Origin: a phage
DNA length: 40,032 bases
Sequence record: PZ490076.1
Reading direction: 5' to 3' (one strand)
Within the stretch, counting starts at the first letter, position 1, and each line of letters starts with the position of its first letter. A model generated the notes under the pieces. It made no database searches, was not told where the DNA came from, and saw nothing but the letters and a program-made list of their open reading frames with translations. This document shows, piece by piece, positions 1 through 40,032 of this stretch. A program made the position numbers and the translations under genes.

Positions 1-127
1 GCGCTACTCATAGTGATTTCCGTTTAATACAGTCGTATATCCCATACCCTATTAGCCAGATGACCGGAGATAAGCATACCCAATGTCCAACACTCATAGT
101 TAACCTCTATCAATTTAAGTGGTAATC
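1..127. repeat. Window-end duplication: bases 1-127 are identical to 39906-40032 (assembly/circularisation overlap, not the phage terminal repeat)
   Basis: Direct comparison of the first and last 127 nt; gives a unit length of 39,905 bp. The junction falls inside the early gene region, not at T7-like genome termini. Confidence 0.9.
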
Positions 128-1553: not shown

Positions 1554-1737
1554 AGAGACTCAGAGACAGACCTATAGCTCCAACCTATCGTCTAACCTCC
1601 AGCCATAGCCTAGACCTATCGTTGACCTAACGTCTTGACTATCGGTCCAACCCTATGATAGACTGGCACGGGTAGGGCCTTTGGTCTGGACTTAAAGAGG
1701 GCCTATGGGGGAGACTTGAGGTTCTTGAACTGTGAGA
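1554..1737 (-). repeat. Predicted direct terminal repeat of the linear genome (single collapsed copy, about 184 bp); left genome end at 1737 on the minus strand
   Basis: Minus strand from 1737 reads TCTCACAGTTCAAGAACC...TCCCCCATAGG, resembling the T7 left terminus (TCTCACAGTGTACGG...TTCCCCCATAGGGGG). Region near 1554-1561 (GAGTCTCT ATCTGT) resembles the T7 TR end (GTGTCCCT ATCTGT). Boundaries rest on remembered T7 sequence. Confidence 0.4.
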
Positions 1738-6031: not shown

Positions 6032-9000
6032 TTACTTCTGTTCAAGAGCAGAAAGTCTGGCTTCGATTCTTTCCAGTTTTCTTCTCTGATAAGCGGCTTC
6101 AGCAAAGAAAATTCCGTCAGGCCGAACACCCCACTCCTCACCCTCTTCGTGAATAACCACCTCGGTGTATACAGGTTCTTCCGTAGTGGTGACATTACCC
6201 TCCTCGTCAGTGTGTTCAATGATTTCATTGTGCGAAAATACCGTATCGGTCATCCGTGGATACTTGTCATAGCACAGAACAGCATAACGACAATTCGTAC
6301 TGTTTTCGTCCATCAGCCCATGTGCAATGAATACATCACGAATTTGCTGAGCAATAACCCCGAAGTGAATACGAGCATCATTGCCTTTCAGTTGAACAGC
6401 ATCTAACCACTGGTACATGATGTAGTGAACGTCACTCCAGGCATCAAGGAAAGCATCATCAAAAACTACCGGCTCTGTTTTCCTCTCCCCGTTAGAAGTA
6501 ACAATAGGGTTACTTCCGAGGTATGCAGTGGTGAAACGGTTTCTAGGCCCACCAAGCGCAGTGACGTTATCGTTATAAGGCTTAACATCAGCACTCTGAA
6601 ATAGATGCTCATCTCCGTTGTAAACTATTCGCCTTGAGTCGGTGTTATTTGCACCATAAAGCGTAATCTGTGCGCCAGTCGTTGCACTGGTGCCTTCACC
6701 CCCGCAAAATATGATGCGCTGCCCTGCCGGGTTATCAGTCGGTATAGATTTTCCGATAAACCCATATTCACCTTCCATTAAAACTTCAGAGCGAATGTTA
6801 CGACTGGTGCTGGCTCTAATGGTCACATGACCTAAACCCAAATCCCCTGTAAATTCCATTGGCGCAGGAACAGTGCGAATCCCATTCGTATCAAAAAACA
6901 CGGGAACAGCTCTGTTAGGTACAGCACCATACCTGAAATCCCTTGAAACACGATTGTCTGGGCCAATCTTCATTTTGTAGCAATACAAATCTGAGGGATG
7001 ACCATCTGATTTGAATGGGTCCTTCGCTGAGTTATCTCCATATGCCCATGGGTTAAAATGGTCCTCTCCACCAAACATGTAGTAGATGTAACTATCCTTC
7101 ACAACTACCGAACCAACACCTACACCTGAGTTAACTATTCCGCCCTGATAAATCTGGTCAGTGATGTTAACCCATTCAATACCATCTGCATTCCAATTGT
7201 TTACATTCAAGCGTGCATAGAAGGTGCGAGGATAAGATGCCTTGTAACGATCATCTGGTGCACCTGCTTCCCATTCATTTTCTGCACGTTCTGAACCAAA
7301 CATAATAAGGTCATCCCCTACTTTAGCAAAAGGCAATGTAGTATGATGAACATTATGTGGAAATCTCAGTGACTCCCAAGTCTGACCTATGTCTCTACTA
7401 CGATGCAAAGAGCTACCTAGTCTATCGCTCCTAGTGCCACGGGTGATGAGGTACAATACACCATCGTAATACTTGATGCAGGGTTCTGAGGCATCTGACT
7501 CATACTCTGAAGGTATCTGACGACGAACATAGTTAGCCGGATTATCGAAAGCGTTAGGGAAGTAGAATAGTCCAACTTCGCGTGGAGCTACATCACCTTG
7601 GTGATAACCCATAACAAAGCCATTGTTATCAATAGCAGAAAAGCTATGAACTTTAGTCACACGAGGAATTAAGCCAAGATCTGTCTTACGCCATGGCGAT
7701 TTATGGAATGAAGTACCCATATGCCAGTTCTTTCCAGCGTTATTCAAATCTGAGTCCTGCTGGTTAGGTGTAAGAACCGTGAAGTTGTCCTTATCTATTA
7801 CCGTTGCAACCTTCATATCACCTGATACACCTGTTACCGCAGAGTTAGAGAAGTTAACAAAGTCACCCACGAACAGCCCGTGATCAGGTACATGGATTGT
7901 TGCATATCGCTGATTTGCTGCCTTCGTAATACCACCAGTGAGATGCAGGCTACGAGACATGGGGCGATCCCACAATGCACAATTGGTTAATGCGTTCTTG
8001 GCTAAAGTACGTGTTTCAATCATGGCAAACAGACGGTTGCGACATACACCCATACTCATACAATGATAGTTCACTGTAGGGTAATCTGGATGCAGATCAG
8101 TTAACCACTCTGGAGTAGACCATGTTTGACCATCATCACCAGACTTAACCCATGATACGTGAAGACGGCTAACACCATGACGATCGCTACCCATGTAAGG
8201 TGCATATATCACATTCTCATATACGAACGCTTTATCCTGAGGCCACGCATTGTAATAAGGGGTGTCCGTTATCTTGAACAGCTCACCCTGAACAAATTCT
8301 TCAGAGACATAATAAAGAGGTTGTCCGGGAATGCGCTCATAAACGAAACGAGTGTTGATGAAGCGACTAATGTCAGGCAGGGATGTGACCTTATATGTCT
8401 TCCCATTGCCATTAAGCCTTTGTCCAACCGGTGTGTCGTTTAATGCGCTCGTTAACGCTGCTGTATCATCAGTGACACCATCCCCTTTAGCACCCCAACC
8501 ACGGACATCTTTTTCATCAAGCCAGCGTGCTCTATGTAATTCAGGGTAGAGTATTGCCCCTTCCGGGTTTGAAATCTGACTTCTTAAAGCAGCATCACCA
8601 ACACTAACCCACGCACCTAATCCAATCCCACCGGAAGTTTCAGGAGTTGAACCAGCAGGAACGTTCTTTGGAAGCGTACCATCCCAGCGGTAATAATCAC
8701 CATCCTCTTCCCATAGCAGGACCTCGCTCCATGTTGTAACGTTGTAGCCTTTCTCGAAGGAGCGACGGGTAATATAGCCAATTAGACCAGCTTCCCTGAT
8801 ACTCTCAGCGATTCGTCGTGCTTCGTCCTCGCTATCCTTAGCGTTGCCAGCAGAGCTGCTAGCAGCATCGGCATATTCCTTCGCTAAGTCAACCGTTTGG
8901 TCTCGACCTTCTTCTGCAATATGGATAGCCTGAAGCTCTGAATTGGTCAGGTCACTAGCTGTCAACACTGAGCCATTCCTGAAGTCTACCACTAAGTCAG

Positions 9001-9226
9001 TTCCAGTCTGACGGTGAATACGAACGATGTCGAAACCTGATTGGTCAACCAACATCTCAATCATCGTTGGATTAAGGAATCGGTAATCTCGACCAACTTC
9101 CAGTACACGGTTCAGGGTAGGGTTAGAGCTATTCACCAGCGTAACAACAACAAACGTTCTGGCTAGGTAGTCGAACTCAATCCTGTACTGAGTGTTTCCT
9201 GAAGGGAATTGTGTAATCGTGGACAT
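6032..9226 (-). CDS. Tailspike with endosialidase (endo-N-acetylneuraminidase) catalytic domain and C-terminal intramolecular chaperone domain, 1064 aa (gene 17 position)
   Basis: N-terminus resembles the T7 gp17 particle-binding domain (EFDYLARTFVVVTL...DLVVDFRNGSVLTASDL); two sialidase Asp-box motifs (SGDDGQTW, SRDIGQTW); C-terminal chaperone-like tail; length equals the K1F endoNF length as I recall it. Confidence 0.85.
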   Translation of the reverse strand: MSTITQFPSGNTQYRIEFDYLARTFVVVTLVNSSNPTLNRVLEVGRDYRFLNPTMIEMLVDQSGFDIVRIHRQTGTDLVVDFRNGSVLTASDLTNSELQAIHIAEEGRDQTVDLAKEYADAASSSAGNAKDSEDEARRIAESIREAGLIGYITRRSFEKGYNVTTWSEVLLWEEDGDYYRWDGTLPKNVPAGSTPETSGGIGLGAWVSVGDAALRSQISNPEGAILYPELHRARWLDEKDVRGWGAKGDGVTDDTAALTSALNDTPVGQRLNGNGKTYKVTSLPDISRFINTRFVYERIPGQPLYYVSEEFVQGELFKITDTPYYNAWPQDKAFVYENVIYAPYMGSDRHGVSRLHVSWVKSGDDGQTWSTPEWLTDLHPDYPTVNYHCMSMGVCRNRLFAMIETRTLAKNALTNCALWDRPMSRSLHLTGGITKAANQRYATIHVPDHGLFVGDFVNFSNSAVTGVSGDMKVATVIDKDNFTVLTPNQQDSDLNNAGKNWHMGTSFHKSPWRKTDLGLIPRVTKVHSFSAIDNNGFVMGYHQGDVAPREVGLFYFPNAFDNPANYVRRQIPSEYESDASEPCIKYYDGVLYLITRGTRSDRLGSSLHRSRDIGQTWESLRFPHNVHHTTLPFAKVGDDLIMFGSERAENEWEAGAPDDRYKASYPRTFYARLNVNNWNADGIEWVNITDQIYQGGIVNSGVGVGSVVVKDSYIYYMFGGEDHFNPWAYGDNSAKDPFKSDGHPSDLYCYKMKIGPDNRVSRDFRYGAVPNRAVPVFFDTNGIRTVPAPMEFTGDLGLGHVTIRASTSRNIRSEVLMEGEYGFIGKSIPTDNPAGQRIIFCGGEGTSATTGAQITLYGANNTDSRRIVYNGDEHLFQSADVKPYNDNVTALGGPRNRFTTAYLGSNPIVTSNGERKTEPVVFDDAFLDAWSDVHYIMYQWLDAVQLKGNDARIHFGVIAQQIRDVFIAHGLMDENSTNCRYAVLCYDKYPRMTDTVFSHNEIIEHTDEEGNVTTTEEPVYTEVVIHEEGEEWGVRPDGIFFAEAAYQRRKLERIEARLSALEQK

Positions 9227-9296: not shown

Positions 9297-12200
9297 CCTT
9301 GATGTGGATACCTTGTTCCTCAAACGTTCCCAGTAGCAACTTCTGAGTAATCGGGTCGTTAGGAACTAGTTCACGGAACGTATTATACATCCCGGTCATG
9401 TAGTCACGCTCGTTGACGCGAGTATCAGCCTTGAGGTAGCCAGCCAGGTTGTAAGCAGAAACGCCAACGTTAGCAGCATATCCGAAAGCTGGAACCTGCT
9501 CCAAGAAGTTACCAACAACATTCATCACAGGGTCACTTGTAGCTGCACCAAACGTGATGGCACGTTCAGGCTTCTCTGTAGGCGAACGAGGTAGGATAGA
9601 CGAACGGAGCATCTTAGTGTCCTCATACCCAGCTATACCCCCAAGAAGGTTAGCTACCCCAAGTGGTCCACCAAGGTGTGAACTACGTGATAGAGCTGCA
9701 TATCCAATCATCGTCGGATCTAGAGCTTGCTTGAGGTAGTCACGGTCTCGACCATCCTGCATAGCGTAAGCCTTGACATGAGCCTGAGCCATGTAGTAGA
9801 TACCAGCAAGACCCATAGACATCACAGTGGACAGGGCAGCGTCCATCGCTCGGTTGTTCTTCGTGGCGTTATAGAAGGTACGCATGGTTCGCCCATTGAT
9901 GGACTTGATGACGAAGTTCTTAAACTGAAGGACAGTCTTAGCGATAGGACCATAAGCCTTGGCGTCCATGTTGGACAGCTTATGAGGACGGAGTAACGTT
10001 TCGTCAGCGATGGTATCACCCATACGCCACAGGTCCATAGCCCTTGGGTCCTGACTGAACGCCTTCTTATCCTTGATGGTGTACTTCCCGTCTGGACCAC
10101 GAGTCACTGACTCACGGATGAGGGACTTAATGCCCTTCCACTGCTCGTCAGAGATACCAGCGGTCTTAAGCCAGCGGTCATCGAACTTACGCTTACTACC
10201 AGTCAGGCTATGCTCCACGATGTCAGACAGGAAGCCTTGACGTCCAGCATCTAACAGGTAGTTGGTCGTACCGTTGAGGACTTTAGTGAACGGAGAGCGT
10301 ACTGCAAGTTCGCCAGTGTAATACTTGGCAGTCCCCAGAGCTGTAGCTGTACCACGACCGAGGTCACTGTAAGATCGCAGACGGTCAATGACATCCTGTT
10401 TAGACGGACGGATTGAGTCATCAAGTTCCTTACCGAAGATAACATTGTGCAGGTCCTTAATCTCTGAGGCCCCAACCTTCTTGTTACGGAAGGCTAGGTC
10501 ACGGAAAATTGGGACTCCATGCAGCATTGCACGAACGTTGCCACGAGCCAGCATACCACCAATCTCCGTTAAGTTCTGAACACCCATGTAGGCATTCTTA
10601 GCGAAGAACGATAGGTCTGTCATTGTGCGCATCACGGTAGCGAAGGCTGCATCATCAGCACCATCACGTCGAGAACGACCAGTTAGAATCTTCAAGGTGT
10701 CACGTAAGGTAGATACTTCACCTTTCAACTTACCGTCATCCCCAGCCTTGTTCATCATGGTCTCAACCAAGTCCTTCATGTCCTTCGTGGTCTTTCCTGT
10801 ACCAGCCATGATAGCAATATCGCCATTAACTCGACGGTTGTAGGCTGGAAGAATCTTATCCATGTCGTACTCACGCAGCTTGTTTACACTGAAGGTCTCA
10901 CCATTAGGCAGGGTAATCTCCACGTCATTATCAAACAGGTTACGAGCCTCAAGGAAGTTGTTATTCTCCAGACCTACCAGACCGTTGATGTTCTCTTCCA
11001 TTACTGATGAACGTTCGAACTGCTCTGTATGGGAGATACCGTAAGCCTTATCGTTGGCGTACTTATCGACTGCCTTAGCCAGCTCCTCAGGAGTCATCTT
11101 AGGGTTCTCAGCCAGTAATGCATCTTCCAGTCTCTGCTTGACGTGTGGACGTGATGCATATCCTGCCAGCCATGACTGTTTGATAGCATTCTGGAGACCT
11201 TCAGCCCCACCAAGCATCTCAGTGTACATCTGCTTCATCTTACTGCTGTAGACGACAGGTACATAAGACCCTTTGAAGCGACTTCCTGGGAAGATGTTCA
11301 CAGCCTTATGGTTCCCGAACATTGCAGGGTTCTCCATCATCTCACGCTTAGAGTCCAGAACTTGCTTCATAATGTCGTGGACCTTAAGCTCTTTAGATGT
11401 AAGCTGAGCTTTAAGCTGACCTGAGGTGTCCTCGATAGCAAGAGTTACACGTTCATAGACGTCCACACGCTGAGCTGAGCGGTCACGCCAGAACTTAAGG
11501 GAATGCAACGGGTCTTCCAGAGCTTCTGTTATAGCGTCATTCAAGTCGTTGTACGCCCTGTGGTCGATGGCACGAAGGCGCTCGAACGTATCCGAAGATG
11601 TGGTCCCGATTTTGCCTGAGGCCCCTGACTGCATACCAGTTGGTGAACGCACTAAGTCAGCTGCAAGTCCACGAATCTCAGGGTTCTCTGACCGAAGCAG
11701 CTTCATGCCAATCTCAGTCAGCCCACCAAGGTTCACACCAGCAGCGGCACGTTCAGGATCAATCACTTCGTCAAAGACCTTACGTGTCTTAGGGTTCAGA
11801 GGGTTCTCACCAATCAGGATTGAACCATCCTCCAGTCGTACACTACCCGGCTCATTCGGAACGTCAGCGAACTTAACGCCTTGATGACTAAAGGTCTCCT
11901 CACCTTCTTGAATAGGTAGACGAGACAGGTCCTGACCATCAACGTTACGGGCTGTCTCACGAGCTTCCAGACGTGTGGCTGGTCCAGCGAACTCGTTAGT
12001 GTTACGCCCTAAGGCTCTGCCTAAACCATCAGCGATAGCAGTCATACCTCCGCCGAAGAGAGCACCGCCAAGGATAGCCTCAGCCACATGAGCATCGCCA
12101 CCAGCCACTGAGGTACGGGACATCTCTGATACACCAGCAAGTGCTCCAGATTGAGCAGCCACGGTGAACATCTTGTTGACCAGCTTGCCACCCTTACCAA

Positions 12201-26206: not shown

Positions 26207-26487
26207 TGCTTGACCTCGAATCGCAGGTTAGACACACCGGACTGACCTGCACCAAAGGCGTCTACCAGCTCCTCCTTGATGATCTCCTTGGTGACAATTT
26301 CAAGGGCAGACTCAGGGCCTGACTCGATTGCTGCTTTGACCATAGCCATCTGAAGCCCATCCAGCTTCTCACCATCAGCGTAGGCTTTAGTCATCTCAGC
26401 CAGTTGGCGACACACTGTCTCTTCTCTCTCTGAGCTAACAACCATCTTCAGGTCGAAACTCACGCGAATACGTTTAGTAATAGCCAT
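26203..26487 (-). CDS. T7 gp5.5 homolog (H-NS-binding protein family), about 94 aa from MAITKRIRVSFDL
   Basis: N-terminus resembles T7 gp5.5 (MAMTKKFKVSFDV); start overlaps the DNA polymerase exon-2 stop (TAATG). Confidence 0.65.
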   Translation of the reverse strand: MAITKRIRVSFDLKMVVSSEREETVCRQLAEMTKAYADGEKLDGLQMAMVKAAIESGPESALEIVTKEIIKEELVDAFGAGQSGVSNLRFEVKQ

Positions 26488-26642: not shown

Positions 26643-27243
26643 CTTTCTGTATTCTCCTATTACTAGGAGTGTCGGACTATATCATCAGCCTTTGAGTTGA
26701 CTGTCTGGCGCTTCGGGTAACGAGGGAGTCTCACCCTCGGCCCTACTCCTTTCGGATAGTCTCTACGCCTTCCACTCTCTAATCCACTTACACGCGGCAG
26801 AGAACGTAACACCAAACTTCTCACCTAAGTGTGTTCCTGTACATCCAGTCTCCAACCAGTATTCCTTCGCGGACTCTTTACGGTCAGCGTAGCGTTCTCT
26901 GTTTGTCTTGACTGTATGCTCAGACCCTTCTAGTAACTGGAGATGCTCTGGATTACAGCATGCCCTGTTCCTACACTTGTGGTCTACTTCATACCCTTCT
27001 GGTATATCTCCGTGCTGTTCCTTCCAGACTGTCCTGTGGTACATCTCTAGGACACCGTTAGTCCTCTTTCGGAAATAACCATCAGCATTAAGTTTGTGTG
27101 ACGTAGGGATGATACAACCACTCTCTGTGGTCGCAAGGATTAACTTCTTGCCTCTCATATATCCTCCCTATGGCTTGGCTCGGTATTGCCCTAGAAGGGT
27201 TTCACCGAGTTCACCAGATTTAATGTGCACAATGAGATAGTTT
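26643..27243 (-). mobile_element. Group I intron (about 601 nt) interrupting the DNA polymerase gene, carrying an HNH endonuclease ORF
   Basis: Exon 1 ends ...AYMAWVH (U at the splice site), exon 2 resumes DEIQV (intron ends in G); possible P1 pairing between exon GUGCAU and intron GUGCAC; group I R-like (AGAGACUA) and S-like (GAUAUAGUCC) elements in the 3' part. Confidence 0.75.
26763..27158 (-). CDS. Intron-encoded HNH homing endonuclease, 131 aa
   Basis: HNH motif (EVDHKCRNRACCNPEHLQLL); GGGAGGA RBS 5 nt upstream; wholly inside the predicted intron. Confidence 0.8.
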   Translation of the reverse strand: MRGKKLILATTESGCIIPTSHKLNADGYFRKRTNGVLEMYHRTVWKEQHGDIPEGYEVDHKCRNRACCNPEHLQLLEGSEHTVKTNRERYADRKESAKEYWLETGCTGTHLGEKFGVTFSAACKWIREWKA

Positions 27244-29259
27244 ATGCACCCATGCCATGTATGCAAAGTCTCCTTCCCAGCCGTGGACATACCCGGCCTC
27301 TTCGAGCATACGTTCAGTCTCGACAATCCAGTGCTTACAGACTACCGCACCATCGCCTTGAAGTAAGGCGTTCAGTGCTGAGTGTGGAGACCGGATGTGG
27401 ATACGGCGACCGTCAAGTCCACGCAACCAACGGCGTTTCCACTTGACGATATTCTCTCCGTCAACCCACTTAGAGTCTGAGATTAACGTACTACTCACAG
27501 CTTCCCTGAGGTCTTTGATGGCTGGTGTACCCTCAATGAATTTCTTCATGAGAGCTGAACCTTCCTTCTTCCCGCCGCCTACTATCAGTCCAATCTTAGC
27601 GGCCCCTGCACCATACAGGAACGCATAGATGAACGTCTTAGCGTTGTTACGGAAAGCATCATGGTCGTGGCTCGACTTATCGCGTGGGACGTTAGGCGCT
27701 AACCCAGCGTTTACTGCGTTGGCCCAGTGGATATCACCTTCGACCACAGTCTTCGCATAGGCACCACCATCAAACGGAGCCGCTCGGTTCCCCAGACAAC
27801 GAAGCTCAAGACCTGAAGCATCCACACCCACTTGAATCCAAGGGTCTGGCTTACCATCCGTCTTGTTCCAAGCTGCACCGAAAGCACCACGGCAAATCTC
27901 ACCATACGGAGCACCGTTAGCAGGGACCTGAGCCATGTTTGGTGAACTGTGAGTCGCACGTCCGGTTACTGCCCCGCATGGGTTGATTGAACCGTGCATA
28001 CGTCCGTCTGGACCTACAAGTTTCAACCATGCGTTCTTACCTTCAGCAGCCTGACCTATGCGCTTCTGGACTACCAGATACTCACGGACCAGCTCTACGC
28101 AAGCCTGAGCCTCTGCGTCCGGTAACTTAACGTGTTCTAACGTCTCGTCATCGACTACAGGTTTCCCTGTGTCAGTGAAGTCCACAGGCTCCCAGCCACG
28201 CTCCATCAGGACTTTCGCTAAGTGGTCTCCGCTTCCCGGATTAAACTCAACGTAAGTGATTGGCGTGAACGGTGCTCCTTCCATCGTGTCTCGTGAGTCG
28301 AACTCGCAAGGCTCCAGACCTAAGCGTTGAGCTTTGTTCTTCGGCTTCTTGAATACTGACCCGACCTTAGGATACACGACTCGCGGATACTTCGGGAGGT
28401 CCTTTCCTGTCCGTGGGTGCCTGAAGAACTCCTTGCCACCCTTCGGTGCATACCAGCTACCGAAAGTCGAACGCAGCTTGTCCAACAGCTCTGCACGTTT
28501 GACGGTTAGTTCACGATATAAGCCTTCGACCATCTCGGTGTTCATCGGATAGCCGTTACGCTCCATCTTCGCACAGGTCCACGCAGCATCATGTTCCAGA
28601 CGCAACGCATAAATCTGGTCGAGAGCGAACTGTTCAGACTGGAAGTAATACTTGTCAGTCAGGAACTTCTTGAACAACGCCAGTGTGACCACAACGTCTT
28701 GAACGTTATAGTCCAGCATCTCCTGAGACGGGAACAGCCATTCGTCCCCAGCCTTATATTCGATACCTTCAGCCTTGCACTTGGCAACGTAATCGTGTTT
28801 GTACTCACCTTTCATCTCACCGAGACGATAGCCCCAAGCCTCAAGAGACTGGCGTCCCATCATCTTAGGTGGCAGACGACCAGCTTTCACTGCGCCCATG
28901 TCTGAGAACTTAATGTTTGGATACATCAAGCGTCCCAGCACCAAGGTATCAATCATCTTGTGTTTCGGGAAGTTAAAGCGTTTCCCAAAGTACAGACGCT
29001 TCAGCTTGTCAATAGCCGGGACGTCATAGTTGATACCGTTGTGGAATACCAGCATACCATCAGGTGATGCGGCAATCTCTTCCACCTTCTGTACATACTC
29101 TTTGAAGCCACCGACGATACCGACCATCGGAGCTACCCCATACTTAAGGGTCTCATTCGACTCGGCGTTAATCAGGACCCCACAGTGAAACTGGGAGACT
29201 GTATCAAGGAGACCGTTGGTCTCTATGTCAGAACCCCAGATACTCTTAAGGTCAAACAT
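27244..29259 (-). CDS. DNA polymerase, exon 1 (T7 gp5 homolog), about 672 aa
   Basis: Strong similarity to T7 gp5 (MEGAPFTPI..VEFNPGS.DH, NGAVTGRATH, DASGLELRCL, AKTFIYAFLYGAG, GDFAYMAWVH); start placed at MFDLKSIW (GGAGGA RBS), not the upstream track start at 29295. Confidence 0.9.
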
Positions 29260-29279
29260 GGTTAATCCTCCGTTTAGTC

Positions 29280-29318
29280 TAATCATAAAGGCCACTCGAT
29301 GTGAATGACCTTGAGTCT
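29280..29318 (-). promoter_or_regulatory. Candidate RNase III processing site (copy B of the conserved element), 21 nt upstream of the DNA polymerase start
   Basis: Minus strand TAGACTCAAGGTCATTCACATCGAGTGGCCTTTATGATTAGAC. Confidence 0.4.
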
Positions 29319-29322
29319 AGAC

Positions 29323-31202
<1,880 letters not shown>

Positions 31203-31249: not shown

Positions 31250-31272
31250 CATCCCTAAGGTGATAGTTTAGG
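31250..31272 (-). promoter_or_regulatory. Variant phage RNAP promoter (CACCTTAGGG instead of CACTATAGG) upstream of gene 4
   Basis: Minus strand GCCTAAACTATCACCTTAGGGATGGG; upstream half matches the consensus, the -4/-3 positions deviate. Confidence 0.4.
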
Positions 31273-31507: not shown

Positions 31508-31966
31508 TTAACCACGGTCGGAAGTGACCAGTTCATTGGTAGACAGCCAGCGTTGCAAGTCGAAACTTGGACACGCCTTAGGTGCTACGTCATGGTGTGC
31601 TTTGATTTCTGCCTGAGGATACAGGACCTTCAGGTCAGCCAGCTTGTTGCGCAGGGAGTTCATCTGGGCTGGAGTGAAGTTAGCTTCAAACTGACCCTTA
31701 GCGTTGATTCCGCCTACAAGGCAGACGCCTACAGACCGTGAGTTCCAGTCCTTAACGTGTGACCCTACGACATTGACCGGGCGACCCTCTTCCACAGTGC
31801 CATCACGTTTGATGATAAAGTGGTAGCCTACGTCCAGCCAGCCTTGCTGCTTGTGCCACATACGGATGGTCTCTACCCCGATGTCCATATCTGGCTTGGT
31901 AGCCGAACAGTGAACGAAGATAGCGTCAGTCCGGGACCGTGGGTTGAACTGTACCTTACTTACCAT
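31508..31966 (-). CDS. N-acetylmuramoyl-L-alanine amidase / RNAP-inhibiting lysozyme (T7 gp3.5 homolog), 152 aa
   Basis: Near-identical blocks to T7 gp3.5 (DAIFVHCSATKP, HKQQGWLDVGYHFIIKRDGTVE, GVCLVGGI, FTPAQM, APKACPSFDL, NELVTSDRG). Confidence 0.95.
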   Translation of the reverse strand: MVSKVQFNPRSRTDAIFVHCSATKPDMDIGVETIRMWHKQQGWLDVGYHFIIKRDGTVEEGRPVNVVGSHVKDWNSRSVGVCLVGGINAKGQFEANFTPAQMNSLRNKLADLKVLYPQAEIKAHHDVAPKACPSFDLQRWLSTNELVTSDRG

Positions 31967-32429
31967 TGTACACCACCAATTCTACGACCACTAGATTCAG
32001 GTGCTGGGTGAAGCGCTGTGCGTCCGTGGTGTGCATCTGGAGACGCTTATGGTTGAAGACGTGTGAGTTGCTAATCTTCACGTAAACTTCTTCAGGCTTT
32101 CCGTGGACGATGAACGTCTGGCCTACACCAATCTTGTCGATGGTCAGGACTTCACGTTTAACGGTGACAGGAGGGACACTTGAGGCTGGCAGGACTTGAG
32201 GTTTATCCTCTACAATTTCCTCAAGATATGCATTTAAAACCCATGCTCCCCACATTCCGTCAGGCTGCGTGTTATGACCCGCGCTACCGTGCTTGTAGTA
32301 GCCACGCTCGGAGGATTCTACCAGGGTACTTCCAACCGTGGAAAACGGGTCTTTCGCACATTTCGTAACGATAGCACCTTTAGGCCACCCGTGGCGGTCA
32401 ACCTTAAGTCTATATTTCTGAGTCATCAC
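31956..32429 (-). CDS. Hypothetical protein, 157 aa, between the endonuclease I and amidase genes (no T7 counterpart)
   Basis: AAAGGAG RBS; start overlaps the gp3 stop; no recognisable motif. Confidence 0.5.
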   Translation of the reverse strand: MMTQKYRLKVDRHGWPKGAIVTKCAKDPFSTVGSTLVESSERGYYKHGSAGHNTQPDGMWGAWVLNAYLEEIVEDKPQVLPASSVPPVTVKREVLTIDKIGVGQTFIVHGKPEEVYVKISNSHVFNHKRLQMHTTDAQRFTQHLNLVVVELVVYNGK

Positions 32430-32878
32430 TTAACTCCTTTCTTCTTGGGGATGAGGATACCTGAAGGCAGACGTACAGTCTCCTCTCGTAGCCACTCAAC
32501 CGGGATGAACTTATCGGCATACTTATAGCCGTTCTTTTCGCACCATGCGCCATACGTGGTCGGAGACCCTTTGTATAGCTTGGAGCGGGAACTTGAGAAC
32601 ACGAACCGGATGTCTAACTCAGGGTGCTGTTCTCGTACCAGAAGGTGCTTCTTACGGTCATCACTATCGAAGATACCTTTGGTCTCCACGATGATACCGT
32701 TAGGAAGAATAAAATCTGGTGTGTACTTGTGGTCGGAAGCCGGAATCACATAGTTGATATAATGGCTTTCGTACTCCGCTTTGACGCCGTTCTGTTCCAG
32801 CCACTGCTGGTTCTTGGCTTCAAGTCCAGAGCGGTAGGCACCCACAGAGTGCCCCCGTTTTGCAGACCATTGGGCCAT
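32426..32878 (-). CDS. Endonuclease I, Holliday-junction resolvase (T7 gp3 homolog), 150 aa
   Basis: Similarity to T7 gp3 (YTPDF.LPNGI.VETKG....DDRKKHLL.REQHPELDIR.VFSSS..KLYKGSPT.YG). Confidence 0.9.
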   Translation of the reverse strand: MAQWSAKRGHSVGAYRSGLEAKNQQWLEQNGVKAEYESHYINYVIPASDHKYTPDFILPNGIIVETKGIFDSDDRKKHLLVREQHPELDIRFVFSSSRSKLYKGSPTTYGAWCEKNGYKYADKFIPVEWLREETVRLPSGILIPKKKGVK

Positions 32879-33576
32879 TAGAAGTCGTAATCGCCACCAG
32901 AGTTGGACTCGGAACCACCTTCGGAACCATCGTCACCGAAGTCATCAGACCCGAAGTCACCATCGGTTGACGCTTTGTAGCCTGTACCGAGGTCTTCATC
33001 ATCACCCCAACCACCATCGCCACCTGCACCATCGCCTTTCCACTCCTTCAGTTCTACCAGAAGGCAGGACTCAAGTTGGAGCTTAACGCTTGCACCAGTA
33101 GCAGCGTTCCACTTAAACGGCAGGACTTTAAACTTGACCTTCAGCTTTGAGCCAGCGCCAATATTCGGGACGTCACGGATTAACTTAGCATCGGTGTCGT
33201 AGAACCGTAATATGATAGGCTCTGACTTACCATCCTTCAGGTAAGACGCGAAGCATTTAAACTTCAGGGTAACAGTACCATCACCATTCTCAATCCACGG
33301 CATGTCGCCTTCTCGTGGTTCAATAGGCTTCTTGCCACGCTGAACCTGAGGCGGGTTCTTCTCGTGGTCTGCAAGTGCTTTCGCATACGCATCGTCGTGA
33401 ATCTTCTGTAAGACATCAATCATCTTACGGACCTTCGGGTTGCTCAGGTCGAATGTCAGGTTGACTTTGTGTTCACCACGCTCGTTGAACTTGGTGTCTG
33501 CTTTGTTAAGCCATGCGTAAGGCTCAACGATACCAGCTACCGGAGTGGTGAAAGTCTTCAGTTGCTCTTTAGCCAT
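32878..33576 (-). CDS. Single-stranded DNA-binding protein (T7 gp2.5 homolog), 232 aa
   Basis: Similarity to T7 gp2.5 (GGSKLKVK...WN.A.GASVKLQLES), acidic C-terminal tail ending in F. Confidence 0.9.
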   Translation of the reverse strand: MAKEQLKTFTTPVAGIVEPYAWLNKADTKFNERGEHKVNLTFDLSNPKVRKMIDVLQKIHDDAYAKALADHEKNPPQVQRGKKPIEPREGDMPWIENGDGTVTLKFKCFASYLKDGKSEPIILRFYDTDAKLIRDVPNIGAGSKLKVKFKVLPFKWNAATGASVKLQLESCLLVELKEWKGDGAGGDGGWGDDEDLGTGYKASTDGDFGSDDFGDDGSEGGSESNSGGDYDF

Positions 33577-33616: not shown

Positions 33617-33639
33617 CTGTCCTACAGTGATAGTTTAGG
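33617..33639 (-). promoter_or_regulatory. Phage RNAP promoter (phi2.5-like), variant CACTGTAGG
   Basis: Minus strand GACCTAAACTATCACTGTAGGACAGACG; the gp2 TAA stop lies inside it. Confidence 0.55.
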
Positions 33640-33968: not shown

Positions 33969-34280
33969 TTAAGCATAACACTTACCTTTATGTTGGTCGA
34001 ACAGCTCCTGATAGAAGGCGGCTTTGTTCAGGTCCTTCTCCATAGTAGCCAGCTCGGACTTCTTACCAGCCCGGAGTCGATACTTCAGGACGTTACCCAT
34101 GCAGAAACCACGGAACTCACTGACAGTCATGGACCGGGCGATAATCTCAATGGATTCCACACCGTCAAAGACCTGATAGTGGGACGGCTTGCGTACACCA
34201 TCGTCTGTATTAGGCGGGTTGCTACAGCTACATACTTCAGCCCCGTTCCATATCGTACAGCCGGGAGCATGCTTAGTCAT
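33969..34280 (-). CDS. T7 gp1.7 (nucleotide kinase) homolog, short form, 103 aa
   Basis: C-terminal 70 aa nearly collinear with the T7 gp1.7 C-terminus (KPSHY..F...E.IE.IARSMTV..F.G.C.GN.LKYRLRAGKKSELA..EKDL.KA.FY.ELF..HK.KCYA); N-terminal part much shorter than T7. Confidence 0.7.
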   Translation of the reverse strand: MTKHAPGCTIWNGAEVCSCSNPPNTDDGVRKPSHYQVFDGVESIEIIARSMTVSEFRGFCMGNVLKYRLRAGKKSELATMEKDLNKAAFYQELFDQHKGKCYA

Positions 34281-34533
34281 TGAATACCTCCTTCACGAAC
34301 TCAACGAACAGGCGAACGCGAGGCCACTTAGTGTAGACCACAGGTACGTTGGTCTCACGCTTCTGGCGAGCCTCCTCCGCTTTGCTCGGAGTAATCAGAG
34401 CGAATACTGTAGGTGATAACTTAACGGCCTTCCCGAAGTAGCCCAGCTTCTCGTTGCGCTTAATGCAAGCGAACGGGTTGTTGGACAGGTGGAAGGTATC
34501 GGTATAACGGTTGAACATTAAGTTCTTAGACAT
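34273..34533 (-). CDS. Hypothetical protein, 86 aa (T7 gene 1.6 position)
   Basis: ORF directly downstream of the phi1.5/1.6-like promoter. Confidence 0.45.
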   Translation of the reverse strand: MSKNLMFNRYTDTFHLSNNPFACIKRNEKLGYFGKAVKLSPTVFALITPSKAEEARQKRETNVPVVYTKWPRVRLFVEFVKEVFND

Positions 34534-34557
34534 AGAGTCTCCTTAGGTTGTTGATGG

Positions 34558-34580
34558 TTGTCCTATAGTGATAGCTTAGG
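34558..34580 (-). promoter_or_regulatory. Phage RNAP promoter (variant, AAGCTATCACTATAGG)
   Basis: Minus strand CCCTAAGCTATCACTATAGGACAACC. Confidence 0.6.
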
Positions 34581-34616
34581 GTCAGGCTGGTTCCCCCAAA
34601 CGATAGCTTGCTAGCA

Positions 34617-34653
34617 CAAAGCAAAGAAACCCAGCAGTCCTAAGACCACTGGG
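34617..34653 (-). terminator. Intrinsic terminator downstream of the ligase gene (T7 TE position)
   Basis: Minus strand CCCAGTGGTCTTAGGACTGCTGGG (10-bp stem, 4-nt loop, two G-U pairs) followed by TTTCTTTGCTTTG. Confidence 0.6.
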
Positions 34654-34664
34654 TTGACATTTAG

Positions 34665-35768
34665 TTAGCTCTTAATGGTCGGATTGTCTTCAGTTCCACG
34701 CCAGCACTTGAAGCTAGGGTGACGAAGTGAGCCATCTGGGAACCGCTCCATGAAGAGGACTTCACACTGCCAGCCTTCGTATGGGTTGGTCTTCTCGGTC
34801 CCATCCTGAATAACCACAGGGCCACCAGCCAAGGTATAGCCACTAGATTCAGCGACTTTAGCTGTGAATTCGTCCTTCTGTTCTTCAGTCAGGCCACAGG
34901 TGTTAACCACCATGCCGTCCTCAAGTAGCACCTCGAAGCCGATGACCTTACCTTCGTTCGCCTTACCCTGAGTCCCCCACACGAGGCCACACACTGTCCC
35001 GTCTATGGTCTCCTCAGGCTTCATTTTCCACATGCCAGACTTCTTGCCACGCTTGTATTTACCAAGCGGGTCCTTGACTACCAGACCCTCGTGTCCTTCC
35101 AGACGCTTCTCTTCGTACAGGGAGCTGAGCGACTCAAGGTCATAGACCGTGTGTGACTCAGACAGAACCCAGTCGATTTCCGGGAAGTATTTCTGGAGGA
35201 GAGGGACGATAGCTTCGGCCTTCAGGCGTGTGACGCTATGAATAGGACCTTCGGCTTTTGGGTCGTTGATGACGTTAAGGTCGATGACCCCGTAGACGAC
35301 CACTCGTAGGGACTCAGGGCTAATCTGGAAGGGAACCTTGTTAGACTTCTTGGTCTCCATATCTGCCTTAGGGTTCATGTTCCACTTGTAGTTCTTGCGG
35401 TCAGACCACATGGTGCGGATAAGACCGGAAGACGTGTTGAAGTCCACGCCTTTGACCATCACCTCGCCATCAATCATTAGGCCAGAGACCTCATGTCCTG
35501 CTTGCTTCAGGAACCAGCGCCAGTCTCCACAGTTTGTTAATTCGGTAGGACTACCATGTTCTGACTTCAGATGCTGAAGCGCTGGGAGAGGTTTAGACTC
35601 ACGGCTCAACCATTGAGTCTCACCAGTAGGGAAGACCGGGAGATTCAGGCGCACACCATCGTACTTCACTTCAGCTTCCAGAGACCCGGCTGCTTCCAGT
35701 GCTTTCTTAACGCCAGACTCAGAGTAATCTACAGCGCGGTGCGGGTTAGTTTTGATAGTCGTTGTCAT
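34665..35768 (-). CDS. ATP-dependent DNA ligase (T7 gp1.3 homolog), about 367 aa
   Basis: KxDG adenylation motif (EVKYDGVR), collinear similarity to T7 ligase (IKTNP..AV, MIDGE.MVKGVDFNT.SGL.RT, EGHEGL.VKDP...YKRGKKSG.WKMKPE, DGSLRHPSF...RGTEDNP); start placed at the second ATG overlapping the gp1.2 stop. Confidence 0.9.
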   Translation of the reverse strand: MTTTIKTNPHRAVDYSESGVKKALEAAGSLEAEVKYDGVRLNLPVFPTGETQWLSRESKPLPALQHLKSEHGSPTELTNCGDWRWFLKQAGHEVSGLMIDGEVMVKGVDFNTSSGLIRTMWSDRKNYKWNMNPKADMETKKSNKVPFQISPESLRVVVYGVIDLNVINDPKAEGPIHSVTRLKAEAIVPLLQKYFPEIDWVLSESHTVYDLESLSSLYEEKRLEGHEGLVVKDPLGKYKRGKKSGMWKMKPEETIDGTVCGLVWGTQGKANEGKVIGFEVLLEDGMVVNTCGLTEEQKDEFTAKVAESSGYTLAGGPVVIQDGTEKTNPYEGWQCEVLFMERFPDGSLRHPSFKCWRGTEDNPTIKS

Positions 35769-39719: not shown

Positions 39720-39916
39720 TACAGTTTGCTCCCAAGAGTTGCTATATCCCAGACGTTCGCGAGGTTGCATATGAATCGTCCGTTAGGCTGACGTACAGTC
39801 CAGCGGACCATACGTACATAGTTGAATTTATAGACTTTACGCGCTTTGTTGATGTCTCTCACCAGCACGTAGGCGATAAGTCCATAGCCTATGGCTATCA
39901 ATATTGCGCTACTCAT
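39719..39916 (-). CDS. Hypothetical small early protein with a hydrophobic N-terminus, 65 aa
   Basis: ORF track; N-terminus MSSAILIAIGYGLIAYVLV looks membrane-anchored; start lies in the window-end overlap region. Confidence 0.35.
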   Translation of the reverse strand: MSSAILIAIGYGLIAYVLVRDINKARKVYKFNYVRMVRWTVRQPNGRFICNLANVWDIATLGSKL

Positions 39917-40032
39917 AGTGATTTCCGTTTAATACAGTCGTATATCCCATACCCTATTAGCCAGATGACCGGAGATAAGCATACCCAATGTCCAACACTC
40001 ATAGTTAACCTCTATCAATTTAAGTGGTAATC

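What the first reader, a model, noticed from the sequence alone, without database searches (positions are those of the whole stretch)
31956..32429. 157-aa ORF inserted between the endonuclease I and amidase genes with no T7 counterpart
T7 has no gene between 3 and 3.5. This ORF has a good RBS (AAAGGAG), is translationally coupled to gp3, and carries no motif I recognise. Accessory insertion in the middle-gene cluster; function unknown.
Basis: seen in the sequence. Interest (0 to 1): 0.45.

Follow-up and report, generated by a model that had tools for sequence, protein, structure and literature searches.

The report
Modular phage gene 3.2 (K1F group)
The ORF is a real but already catalogued gene (gene 3.2 of K1F-like relatives of phage T7) whose function nobody knows; it joins a strongly conserved C-terminal small beta-barrel to a fast-evolving, swappable N-terminal beta-barrel that looks like a host-interaction cassette.

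Summary
The ORF exists as described, on the minus strand (31956-32429). The conserved start is the ATG at 32426, giving 156 aa. It has an AAAGGAG ribosome-binding site, overlaps the gene 3 stop by 1 nt and overlaps the gene 3.5 start by 11 nt. T7 has no counterpart at this position or anywhere else in its genome.

It is not a new insertion. The window is a Kayfunavirus (K1F-like) genome and the ORF is K1F gene 3.2 (PHROG 16385). It is 100% identical to a hypothetical protein of phage BUCT788, and about 220 GenBank phages carry the family at the same position.

The gene is modular. A basic C-terminal domain of about 65 aa has the invariant motif SNSHxFN..QMHTT..RF, a dN/dS of about 0.1, and a predicted SH3-like barrel fold. 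It is core to the lineage. A Pro-rich linker joins it to an N-terminal SH3-like domain (AlphaFold pLDDT above 90). That N-domain is a sharply bounded hypervariable cassette. At least eight unrelated versions exist, and it can also be absent, doubled or deleted, even between genomes that are otherwise 94-100% identical.

No enzyme motif or known family matches. My best guess (about 40%) is a non-enzymatic binding protein made in mid-infection, whose variable N-module engages a polymorphic host factor in host takeover or counter-defence. Function remains untested. Interest is modest.

The parts
32434..32440 (-). Ribosome-binding site AAAGGAG, 7 nt upstream of the ATG. It lies inside the last codons of gene 3.
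   Evidence: Read directly from the sequence. The same GAAAGGAG(T/C)TAAG context is found in all 17 IMG/VR homologous loci.
31956..32426 (-). Gene 3.2 coding sequence: ATG at 32426-32424, 156 codons, stop TAA at 31958-31956. The GTG at 32429-32427 used by the ORF finder is probably not the start.
   Evidence: Full-length match to phrog_16385 at 3e-93. 100% identical to BUCT788 XTB81160.1.
32211..32426 (-). N-terminal module 'type A' (aa 1-72): an SH3-like beta-barrel that forms the hypervariable, exchangeable cassette.
   Evidence: AlphaFold pLDDT is 89-95 over residues 1-70, with five strands. Foldseek top hits are SH3 domains and PsaE, at fold level only (E 0.06-1). Mean column entropy is 1.17 bits, concentrated in loops. 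Nucleotide identity collapses here while the flanks stay at 93-100%. Type A occurs in 56 GenBank phages, always directly after endonuclease I.
32154..32210 (-). Pro-rich linker (aa 73-91, EDKPQVLPASSVPPVTVKR). It is conserved and marks the 3' boundary of the exchangeable cassette.
   Evidence: It is shared nearly unchanged by architectures with N-modules A, B, D and E. Nucleotide identity recovers to 82-98% from this point on. It is predicted to be disordered.
31959..32153 (-). Conserved C-terminal module (aa 92-156): a basic small beta-barrel with the invariant motif SNSHxFN..QMHTT..RF. This is the core of the family and corresponds to PHROG 15211.
31956..31966 (-). 11-nt overlap between the end of gene 3.2 and the start of gene 3.5 (ATG at 31966). 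The last codons of gene 3.2 also carry the gene 3.5 ribosome-binding site.
   Evidence: Natural deletion variants that lose the C-module (TH20, P0133, P0135) still keep this 3' end.
32426..32878 (-). Gene 3 (endonuclease I), immediately upstream. Its TGA stop (32428-32426) shares one base with the gene 3.2 ATG.
   Evidence: PF05367 at E=3e-81; sequence read.
31508..31966 (-). Gene 3.5 (N-acetylmuramoyl-L-alanine amidase / T7-lysozyme homologue), immediately downstream.
   Evidence: PF01510 at E=4e-16 and phrog_822 at 1e-79.
33620..33639 (-). Phage-RNAP promoter-like repeat upstream of gene 2.5. It is the likely promoter of the 2.5-3-3.2-3.5-3.7 transcription unit.
   Evidence: It is one of 12 copies of the repeat whose minus-strand consensus is CCTAAACTATCACTATAGGA. 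The next copy downstream is at 31253-31272. No copy, terminator or Rfam element lies within gene 3.2. Its role as a promoter is inferred by analogy with T7 phi2.5.

Best explanation
SHOWN. The ORF is a genuine protein-coding gene, gene 3.2 of K1F-like Studiervirinae. It lies in the middle (class II, DNA-metabolism) transcription unit, between endonuclease I and the amidase, and is translationally coupled to both.

The product has two modules joined by a disordered, Pro-rich linker:
- A basic C-terminal small beta-barrel of about 65 aa. It is almost invariant across the lineage and also exists alone as a 74-aa protein in many phages.
- An N-terminal SH3-like barrel that is a sharply bounded exchangeable cassette. 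At least eight sequence-unrelated versions exist. It can also be absent, doubled or deleted, and it is swapped between genomes that are otherwise 94-100% identical.

No catalytic motif, transmembrane segment, signal peptide or known family is detectable.

INFERRED (my commitment). gp3.2 is a non-enzymatic binding protein made in mid-infection. The constant C-module binds a conserved partner, either a nucleic acid or a conserved phage or host protein. The variable N-module binds a polymorphic host factor. The protein would then act in host takeover or counter-defence, and the diversity of cassettes would be kept by an arms race plus recombination. The conserved gene-3 end with its ribosome-binding site and the conserved linker would serve as homology arms for that recombination.
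For: Real gene and family:
- Full-length phrog_16385 match at 3e-93.
- 100% identity to BUCT788 XTB81160.1 and homology to K1F gp3.2.
- 255 homologues; the listed ones come largely from ~39-40 kb phage contigs.
- Purifying selection: C-module dN/dS about 0.06-0.2, N-module 0.14-0.63.

Modularity:
- Architectures seen are A, B, C, D, E, F, G, H, A+B and none.
- The modules are not detectably homologous to each other (hhalign probability 30% or less).
- The N-modules are found only at this locus.

Cassette signature:
- Against K1F, gene 3, the linker, the C-module and gene 3.5 are 93-100% identical in nucleotides, while the N-module is 47-78%. Against Vec13 the N-module is 33-51%.
- N-module dS is saturated (above 2) where C-module dS is about 0.2. 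This points to old alleles moved by recombination.
- The closest whole-genome relative, phiYIO1-1 (96.3%), carries a different cassette.

Variability and dispensability:
- N-module variability sits in predicted loops: 1.49 bits against 0.68 bits in strands.
- Natural in-frame N-module deletions retain the C-module (P0124, P0146, P0148). A frameshift-scrambled N-module occurs in P0123. C-module deletions also occur (TH20, P0133, P0135).

Context:
- Genome-wide, the cassette is one of about 12 flagged sub-70% windows (about 10 distinct regions) against K1F. The others include the ocr region, 1.6-1.8 and 5.4-5.5. Known T7 host-interaction genes map to those regions; that statement rests on established T7 biology and the annotation.

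Folds.

No enzyme or defence family matches.
Against: - No partner, phenotype or expression data exist. The binding role is inferred only from fold class and evolutionary pattern.
- Pairwise dN/dS never exceeds 1, so positive selection is not demonstrated. Relaxed constraint plus recombination would give a similar picture.
- Cassette type does not track host genus. Type A occurs in phages of Escherichia, Citrobacter, Hafnia, Kosakonia, Pectobacterium and Providencia.
- The invariant polar cluster in the C-module (S, N, S, H ... H, T, T ... R) could be a catalytic or metal site, which would contradict 'non-enzymatic'.
- The C-module model has only moderate confidence (mean pLDDT 70).
- The tight coupling to gene 3 and gene 3.5 might instead signal a role in phage DNA metabolism.
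Confidence: 0.4

Rival explanations
1. gp3.2 is an accessory factor of phage DNA metabolism or gene regulation. It would bind DNA or branched DNA, or modulate its neighbours: endonuclease I (junction resolution, host DNA breakdown) or gp3.5 (inhibition of the phage RNA polymerase). The N-module would tune that activity.
For: - The gene always sits directly after gene 3 and is translationally coupled to it in three Studiervirinae lineages, even where another ORF separates it from the amidase.
- It lies in the phi2.5-type middle transcription unit.
- The C-module is basic, pI 9.5-9.7, in both divergent groups.
- Its fold resembles KOW/Tudor/DtxR-SH3-type barrels, several of which bind nucleic acids or polymerases.
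- The extreme conservation of the C-module fits a conserved phage partner.
Against: - T7, T3 and most other Studiervirinae do without it.
- Natural deletion variants of either module exist, so it is not essential to the core machinery.
- A housekeeping modulator would not be expected to carry eight or more unrelated, recombining N-modules.
Confidence: 0.2
2. gp3.2 is an inter-phage competition factor. The variable N-module would recognise a protein of rival co-infecting phages or of resident prophages or satellites, and frequency-dependent selection would keep many alleles.
For: - Old alleles with saturated dS sit in a nearly identical backbone and are shuffled by recombination. This fits balancing or frequency-dependent selection.
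- Cassette type is uncoupled from host genus.
- The gene is non-essential.
Against: There is no direct evidence. The same pattern is expected for counter-defence. No similarity to known exclusion proteins was found.
Confidence: 0.1
3. gp3.2 is a cell-wall (peptidoglycan or polysaccharide) binding helper of the adjacent amidase, analogous to the SH3b wall-binding domains of endolysins.
For: - It lies immediately upstream of, and overlaps, the amidase gene.
- Both modules are SH3-like.
Against: - There is no hit to any SH3b Pfam family (SH3_3, SH3_5 and others) even at E up to 1.
- There is no signal peptide.
- In the Providencia lineage another ORF separates it from the amidase, whereas linkage to gene 3 is kept.
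- Enterobacterial peptidoglycan is conserved, which gives no reason for many unrelated modules.
- T7-type lysozymes act without wall-binding domains (established knowledge).
Confidence: 0.05
4. The ORF is a non-functional or purely selfish filler, kept only because its ends carry the translation signals of genes 3 and 3.5.
For: - The termini overlap the neighbours' stop codon and start/ribosome-binding site.
- Deletion variants keep the 3' end.
- No function is known.
Against: - dN/dS is about 0.1 over the whole C-module, not just the ends.
- 14 columns stay invariant between groups that are only about 35% identical.
- The N-module has a confident predicted fold.
- In-frame N-module deletions and a restored reading frame preserve the C-module.
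Confidence: 0.03

Closest known systems
Gene 3.2 of coliphage K1F and its orthologues (K1F YP_424930.1; EcoDS1 gp3.2; CR44b/CR8 '3.01'; Dev2/SH3/SH4 74-aa gp3.2; PHROGs 16385 and 15211)
   Same: Same family and same genomic slot. It gives a full-length HMM match (3e-93). It is 76% identical to K1F gp3.2 and 100% identical to BUCT788 XTB81160.1. The ribosome-binding site and overlap arrangement with genes 3 and 3.5 are the same.
   Different: Nothing essential differs. This allele carries the 'type A' N-module. Other members carry unrelated N-modules or none. The family has no assigned function in any source consulted.
SH3-like small beta-barrel superfold (eukaryotic SH3, PsaE, FeoA, DtxR-family C-terminal domain, EF-P/KOW, Tudor)
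   Same: Both modules are predicted to be barrels of five or six strands and about 65-70 aa. These are their best structural matches.
Small non-essential class I/II host-interaction proteins of T7 (Ocr/gp0.3, gp1.2, gp2, gp4.5, gp5.5, gp5.7, gp5.9)
   Same: They are also small, non-enzymatic early or middle proteins, dispensable in the laboratory and lineage-specific. In the window-versus-K1F comparison the 3.2 cassette is a divergence hot spot alongside the ocr and 5.4-5.5 regions. The roles of the T7 proteins come from established knowledge and the annotation.
   Different: There is no sequence or profile similarity to any T7 product. No target is known. The arrangement of a constant module plus a swappable module is not described for those proteins.
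T7 gene 3.8 / HNH homing endonucleases
   Same: It is likewise a small ORF in the gene 3-4 interval of T7-group phages.
   Different: There is no HNH motif or Pfam hit and no similarity to T7 gene 3.8. The position differs too: T7 gene 3.8 lies after gene 3.5.

Membership tests
K1F gp3.2 family (PHROG 16385 / 15211) | Significant full-length match to the family profile | tested here: met
   phrog_16385 at E=3.1e-93, residues 1-156 against profile positions 1-157 of 157. phrog_15211 at E=5.3e-40 for residues 87-156.
K1F gp3.2 family (PHROG 16385 / 15211) | Position directly downstream of gene 3 (endonuclease I), coupled to it, and upstream of gene 3.5 (amidase) | tested here: met
   Window. K1F, BUCT788, SH4, Vec13, CR8 and phiYIO1-1. 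17 IMG/VR loci.
K1F gp3.2 family (PHROG 16385 / 15211) | C-terminal invariant motif G..F...Y...SNSHxF....(Q)MH(T)T...RF...L | tested here: met
   All 14 invariant columns of alignment A3 are present in the window protein.
T7 gene 3.8 / HNH endonuclease | HNH (beta-beta-alpha-metal) motif or Pfam HNH-family match | tested here: not met
   No Pfam family at E up to 1. No match to any T7 reading frame.
SH3-like beta-barrel fold (structural class, not a sequence family) | Compact five-stranded barrel whose best structural neighbours are SH3-like domains | tested here: inconclusive
Bacterial SH3b cell-wall-binding domains of endolysins | Match to the SH3_3, SH3_5 or related Pfam families | tested here: not met
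   No Pfam hit.
Known anti-defence or defence-associated protein families | Sequence or structural match to a characterised member | tested here: not met
Class II (middle) genes of T7-like phages | Transcription by the phage RNA polymerase from a middle promoter | not testable with these tools
   The gene lies between promoter-like repeats at 33620-33639 and 31253-31272 with no terminator between them. Timing of expression is inferred by analogy with T7 phi2.5.

The most novel reading that the evidence does not exclude
gp3.2 is a modular 'adaptor'. The invariant basic C-terminal barrel would dock onto one conserved cellular or phage machine, for example a protease, a polymerase or DNA. The interchangeable N-terminal barrels would each capture a different polymorphic host immunity protein. 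K1F-like phages would then change their counter-defence specificity by cassette exchange at a single locus, in the same way that tailspike modules are exchanged.
Probability: 0.12. Interest if true: 0.7.

Novelty: already known. Interest (0 to 1): 0.3.

Why it matters
The ORF as found is ordinary. An identical protein is in GenBank and the gene has carried a name (3.2) in the K1F annotation for years.

What the analysis adds is the gene's structure as an evolutionary locus. A constant, strongly constrained domain is fused to a hypervariable cassette with sharp boundaries. Very similar therapeutic-candidate phages (K1F, LM33_P1, Mt1B1_P3, Typhi phages and others) differ at this cassette.

If the cassette does set sensitivity to host factors, it would be a second determinant of host range after adsorption in a phage group used for therapy and engineering. 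The experiment is cheap, because K1F is already genetically tractable.

Tried and rejected
Searches that found nothing:
- Pfam, NCBIfam, PADLOC and PDB-sequence searches with the protein and with profiles.
- An exhaustive HMMER profile search of 1.84 billion representatives. It found only 17 clusters: the family plus truncated or frameshifted fragments, with no distant relatives. Where genomic context was checked it was T7-like phage.

Leads that went nowhere:
- I chased the best BFVD hit (Providencia phage PSTRCR_114) by guessing an accession. I fetched an unrelated T4-like phage instead and dropped the lead.
- I tested whether the N- and C-modules are diverged duplicates. They are not detectably so (hhalign probability 30% or less).
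- I looked for an overlapping DNA or RNA element that could explain the conservation, such as a phage promoter, terminator or Rfam family. None lies inside the gene.
- I tested for a displaced T7 gene. None was found.

Other:
- Literature searches gave only 'hypothetical protein/gp3.2' listings. The original K1F genome paper is not in the library.
- The last word-indexed protein search, run with the C-module profile, gave a poor census because of candidate capping.

Full report
**1. The observation**

All genes in this window run on the minus strand. The ORF finder lists an ORF at 31956..32429 (minus strand, 157 aa, GTG start). It lies exactly between a 150-aa ORF at 32426..32878 and a 152-aa ORF at 31508..31966. 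Pfam identifies the neighbours as phage endonuclease I (PF05367, 3e-81) and an Amidase_2 N-acetylmuramoyl-L-alanine amidase (PF01510, 4e-16). These are the homologues of T7 genes 3 and 3.5.

Reading the minus strand gives ...AAG AAG AAA GGA GTT AAG TGA TG ACT.... AAAGGAG occupies 32440-32434. The gene 3 stop codon TGA is at 32428-32426, and an ATG at 32426-32424 shares its A with that stop. The GTG one codon upstream is what the ORF finder reports. In 17 homologous loci the context is either ...GTTAAGTGATG or ...G(T/C)TAAGAAATG. The latter has no GTG, so the ATG is the conserved start and the protein is 156 aa. BUCT788 is annotated the same way.

The stop codon TAA (31958-31956) lies 11 nt inside gene 3.5, whose ATG is at 31966.

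T7 itself has gene 3 at 10257-10706 abutting gene 3.5 at 10706-11161. Nothing anywhere in the T7 genome resembles the ORF. The best tblastn E-value is 1.4, and the best profile hits against all 638 six-frame ORFs have E of 0.34 or higher.

**2. What the window is**

A 24-kb stretch is 94-96% identical to phiYIO1-1, Mt1B1_P3, pO2 and K1F. The window is therefore a Kayfunavirus (K1F-like Studiervirinae) genome, presented as the reverse complement.

The first and last 127 nt are identical. The physical ends of K1F map to window 1555-1737. The window is thus a circularly permuted assembly with a 127-nt overlap, and the non-redundant length is 39,905 bp.

**3. What the ORF is**

It matches phrog_16385 ('unknown function') end to end at 3e-93. 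Its residues 87-156 match the 74-aa phrog_15211 at 5e-40. tblastn finds it in 220 phage records. It is 100% identical to a BUCT788 'hypothetical protein' and 76% identical to K1F gene 3.2 (YP_424930.1). It carries other names in other phages:
- '3.01' in CR44b and CR8.
- gp3.2 in EcoDS1 and Dev2.

About 228 records share the surrounding gene 3/3.5 DNA, so nearly all phages with this backbone have the gene. A word-indexed search of 5.8 billion proteins returns 255 relatives. The 120 listed come largely from contigs of ~39-40 kb, with many shorter fragments. An exhaustive profile search of 1.84 billion cluster representatives returns only 17 clusters, all of them this family or truncated or frameshifted fragments of it.

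The most distant members are about 35% identical in the C-terminal part. They come from Providencia-phage-like Studiervirinae, where the gene again follows endonuclease I directly but is separated from the amidase by one more small ORF.

There is no hit in Pfam, NCBIfam, PADLOC or PDB sequences. The literature I could search lists the gene only as hypothetical.

**4. Anatomy: a constant module and a cassette**

Aligning relatives shows a tripartite protein.

*The C-terminal module.* Residues 92-156 are nearly invariant, with a mean column entropy of 0.21 bits. Fourteen columns are identical even in the members that share only about 35% identity: G, F, Y, S-N-S-H, F, M-H, T, R-F, L. This module is basic in both groups, with pI 9.5-9.7. 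In many phages it exists on its own as a protein of 74-76 aa (SH4, Dev2, many Salmonella Typhi phages).

*The linker.* Residues 73-91 (EDKPQVLPASSVPPVTVKR) form a Pro-rich linker that is predicted to be disordered. It is nevertheless conserved across several architectures.

*The N-terminal module.* Residues 1-72 are variable, at 1.17 bits. Other phages replace this module with sequences that are not detectably related (hhalign probability 30% or less). I labelled the versions as follows:
- Type A: this window and K1F. It occurs in 56 GenBank records.
- Type B: Vec13. It occurs in 27 records.
- Type C: CR8.
- Type D: Monomax and P0125.
- Type E: phiYIO1-1 and P0126.
- Type F: P0130.
- Types G and H: the Providencia group.
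- A+B tandem: 226-227 aa (P0109, P0111, P0121).

Every one of these modules was found only at this locus.

**5. Evolutionary signature**

Pairwise Nei-Gojobori estimates give a median dN/dS of 0.125 for the C-module (171 pairs) and 0.14-0.63 for type-A N-modules. N-module dS is saturated (above 2) in pairs where C-module dS is only about 0.2. Both halves therefore encode protein. The N-module alleles are much older than their flanks.

A sliding identity profile makes the boundaries explicit. Compared with K1F and Vec13, gene 3, the linker, the C-module and gene 3.5 are 93-100% identical. Identity falls to 47-78% (K1F) or 33-51% (Vec13) exactly across the N-module, approximately window 32204-32426. 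The module is absent in SH4.

The closest whole-genome relative, phiYIO1-1, carries the unrelated type E module.

Within type A, variability concentrates in predicted loops, at 1.49 bits against 0.68 bits in strands.

Natural variants show that either module can be lost:
- Precise in-frame N-module deletions that keep the C-module: P0124, P0146, P0148.
- An N-module scrambled by a frameshift and then restored into frame: P0123.
- Deletions that remove the C-module but keep the 3' end carrying the gene 3.5 ribosome-binding site: TH20 (an 'unverified' record), P0133, P0135.

The gene is therefore dispensable for propagation, at least under some conditions.

Genome-wide against K1F (89% identity), a 200-nt sliding window flagged about 12 stretches below 70% identity, which merge into about 10 distinct regions. 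The N-cassette is one of them. The others include the 0.2-0.37/ocr region, 1.6-1.8, the 5.3 HNH gene and 5.4-5.5.

**6. Structure**

With a 68-sequence alignment, AlphaFold2 predicts residues 1-72 confidently (pLDDT 89-95) as a five-stranded barrel. The best PDB neighbours by Foldseek are SH3 domains and PsaE, but only at E 0.06-1. BFVD gives nothing below E 0.02.

Both modules are thus SH3-like barrels at fold level. This is a class dominated by protein-, peptide- and nucleic-acid-binding domains. The class does not identify a function, and the C-module model is only moderately reliable.

**7. Context**

Twelve copies of a 20-nt repeat mark the phage-RNAP promoters. Its minus-strand consensus is CCTAAACTATCACTATAGGA. 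The copies flanking the ORF are at 33620-33639 (before gene 2.5) and 31253-31272 (before gene 4). No copy, terminator-like site or Rfam family lies within the gene.

By analogy with T7 phi2.5, gene 3.2 is a middle (class II) gene co-transcribed with 2.5, 3, 3.5 and 3.7.

**8. Interpretation**

What is shown:
- It is a real gene and a member of the K1F gp3.2 family.
- It combines a constant C-module with an exchangeable N-module.
- It has no enzyme signature.
- It is non-essential.

What is inferred: the protein is a binding factor. Its constant module recognises something conserved, and its cassette recognises something polymorphic. Polymorphic host components that phages must bind are, above all, immunity and other host-specific factors. 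The other divergence hot spots in the same genome include regions where T7 encodes known host-interaction proteins. I therefore favour a host-takeover or counter-defence role, at about 0.4.

The main rival (about 0.2) is an accessory role in phage DNA metabolism or in regulating its neighbours gp3 or gp3.5. The invariant coupling to gene 3 and the basic C-module support that rival. Inter-phage competition (about 0.1), a wall-binding helper of the amidase (about 0.05) and a functionless filler (about 0.03) are less likely, for the reasons given under each rival.

Positive selection is not demonstrated, because no pairwise dN/dS exceeds 1. The conserved polar cluster in the C-module could still turn out to be an active or metal site.

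**9. Novelty and score**

The finding as stated, an ORF between genes 3 and 3.5 that T7 lacks, is already known. The gene is named in the K1F annotation, it sits in PHROGs, and an identical protein is in GenBank. It is not a homologue of T7 gene 3.8.

To my knowledge from the searchable literature, the cassette structure, the fold assignments and the dispensability evidence have not been described before. They turn an anonymous ORF into a testable locus, but they do not reveal a new kind of system. Interest is 0.3.

Noticed in passing
window 1-127 and 39906-40032; window 1555-1737: The two ends of the window are an exact 127-nt duplicate. The genome is circularly permuted relative to K1F: K1F's physical ends and its 178-nt terminal repeat map to window 1555-1737. 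The 127-nt repeat therefore looks like an assembly overlap of a circularised contig, not the true terminal repeat. The non-redundant length is 39,905 bp. All genes are on the minus strand.
   Followed up: yes
window 2318, 9277, 16554, 20961, 21949, 24741, 24770, 31253, 33620, 34561, 36289, 39368 (20-nt sites, minus strand): There are twelve copies of a 20-nt repeat whose minus-strand consensus is CCTAAACTATCACTATAGGA. They lie in intergenic positions and are presumably the promoters of this phage's own RNA polymerase. Two copies are only 29 nt apart (24741 and 24770).
   Followed up: partly
window 6032-9226 (minus strand): A 1064-aa ORF is collinear with K1F gene 17 (endosialidase tailspike), inside a 14-kb block that is 94% identical to K1F. 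This phage probably targets the K1 polysialic-acid capsule.
   Followed up: partly
window about 33974-34755 (K1F genes 1.6-1.8 region) and about 26230-26462 (5.4-5.5 region): These are other sharp divergence hot spots relative to K1F. The 1.6/1.7/1.75/1.8 region includes stretches with no detectable similarity. Here the gene 1.7-like ORF is only 103 aa (33969-34280), against 155 aa in K1F. The early 0.2-0.37/ocr region and part of gene 16 also diverge.
   Followed up: partly
window 26763-27158 (minus strand), next to ORF 27220-29295: A 131-aa ORF lies at the position of K1F gene 5.3 (an HNH endonuclease). It sits within or next to the DNA polymerase gene, which is annotated in K1F as a two-piece join. 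The polymerase here may be interrupted in the same way.
   Followed up: no
L024 4438-4677; L032 1659-2012: In the Providencia-phage lineage an additional small ORF of unknown function sits between the gp3.2-like gene and the amidase. It is 79 aa in a metagenomic contig and 117 aa in PSTRCR_120. The gene 3 to 3.5 junction is thus a recurrent insertion site in Studiervirinae.
   Followed up: no
L006 (Escherichia virus TH20, MT446394, unverified record) about 1500-1800; proteins P0133, P0135, P0132, P0137: Several independent assemblies carry deletions that remove the conserved C-module but keep the last ~45 nt of the gene, which hold the gene 3.5 ribosome-binding site. These read through in another frame (…GGVQW*). 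They may be laboratory or natural knock-outs of gene 3.2.
   Followed up: partly
window 32878-33576 and 29499-31199 (minus strand): Both gp2.5 (…GGDYDF) and gp4 (…WEDTDF) end in acidic tails with a terminal Phe, as in T7. In T7 these tails dock onto basic patches of the DNA polymerase. A basic peptide-binding barrel such as the gp3.2 C-module could in principle bind such tails. This is pure speculation and was not tested.
   Followed up: no
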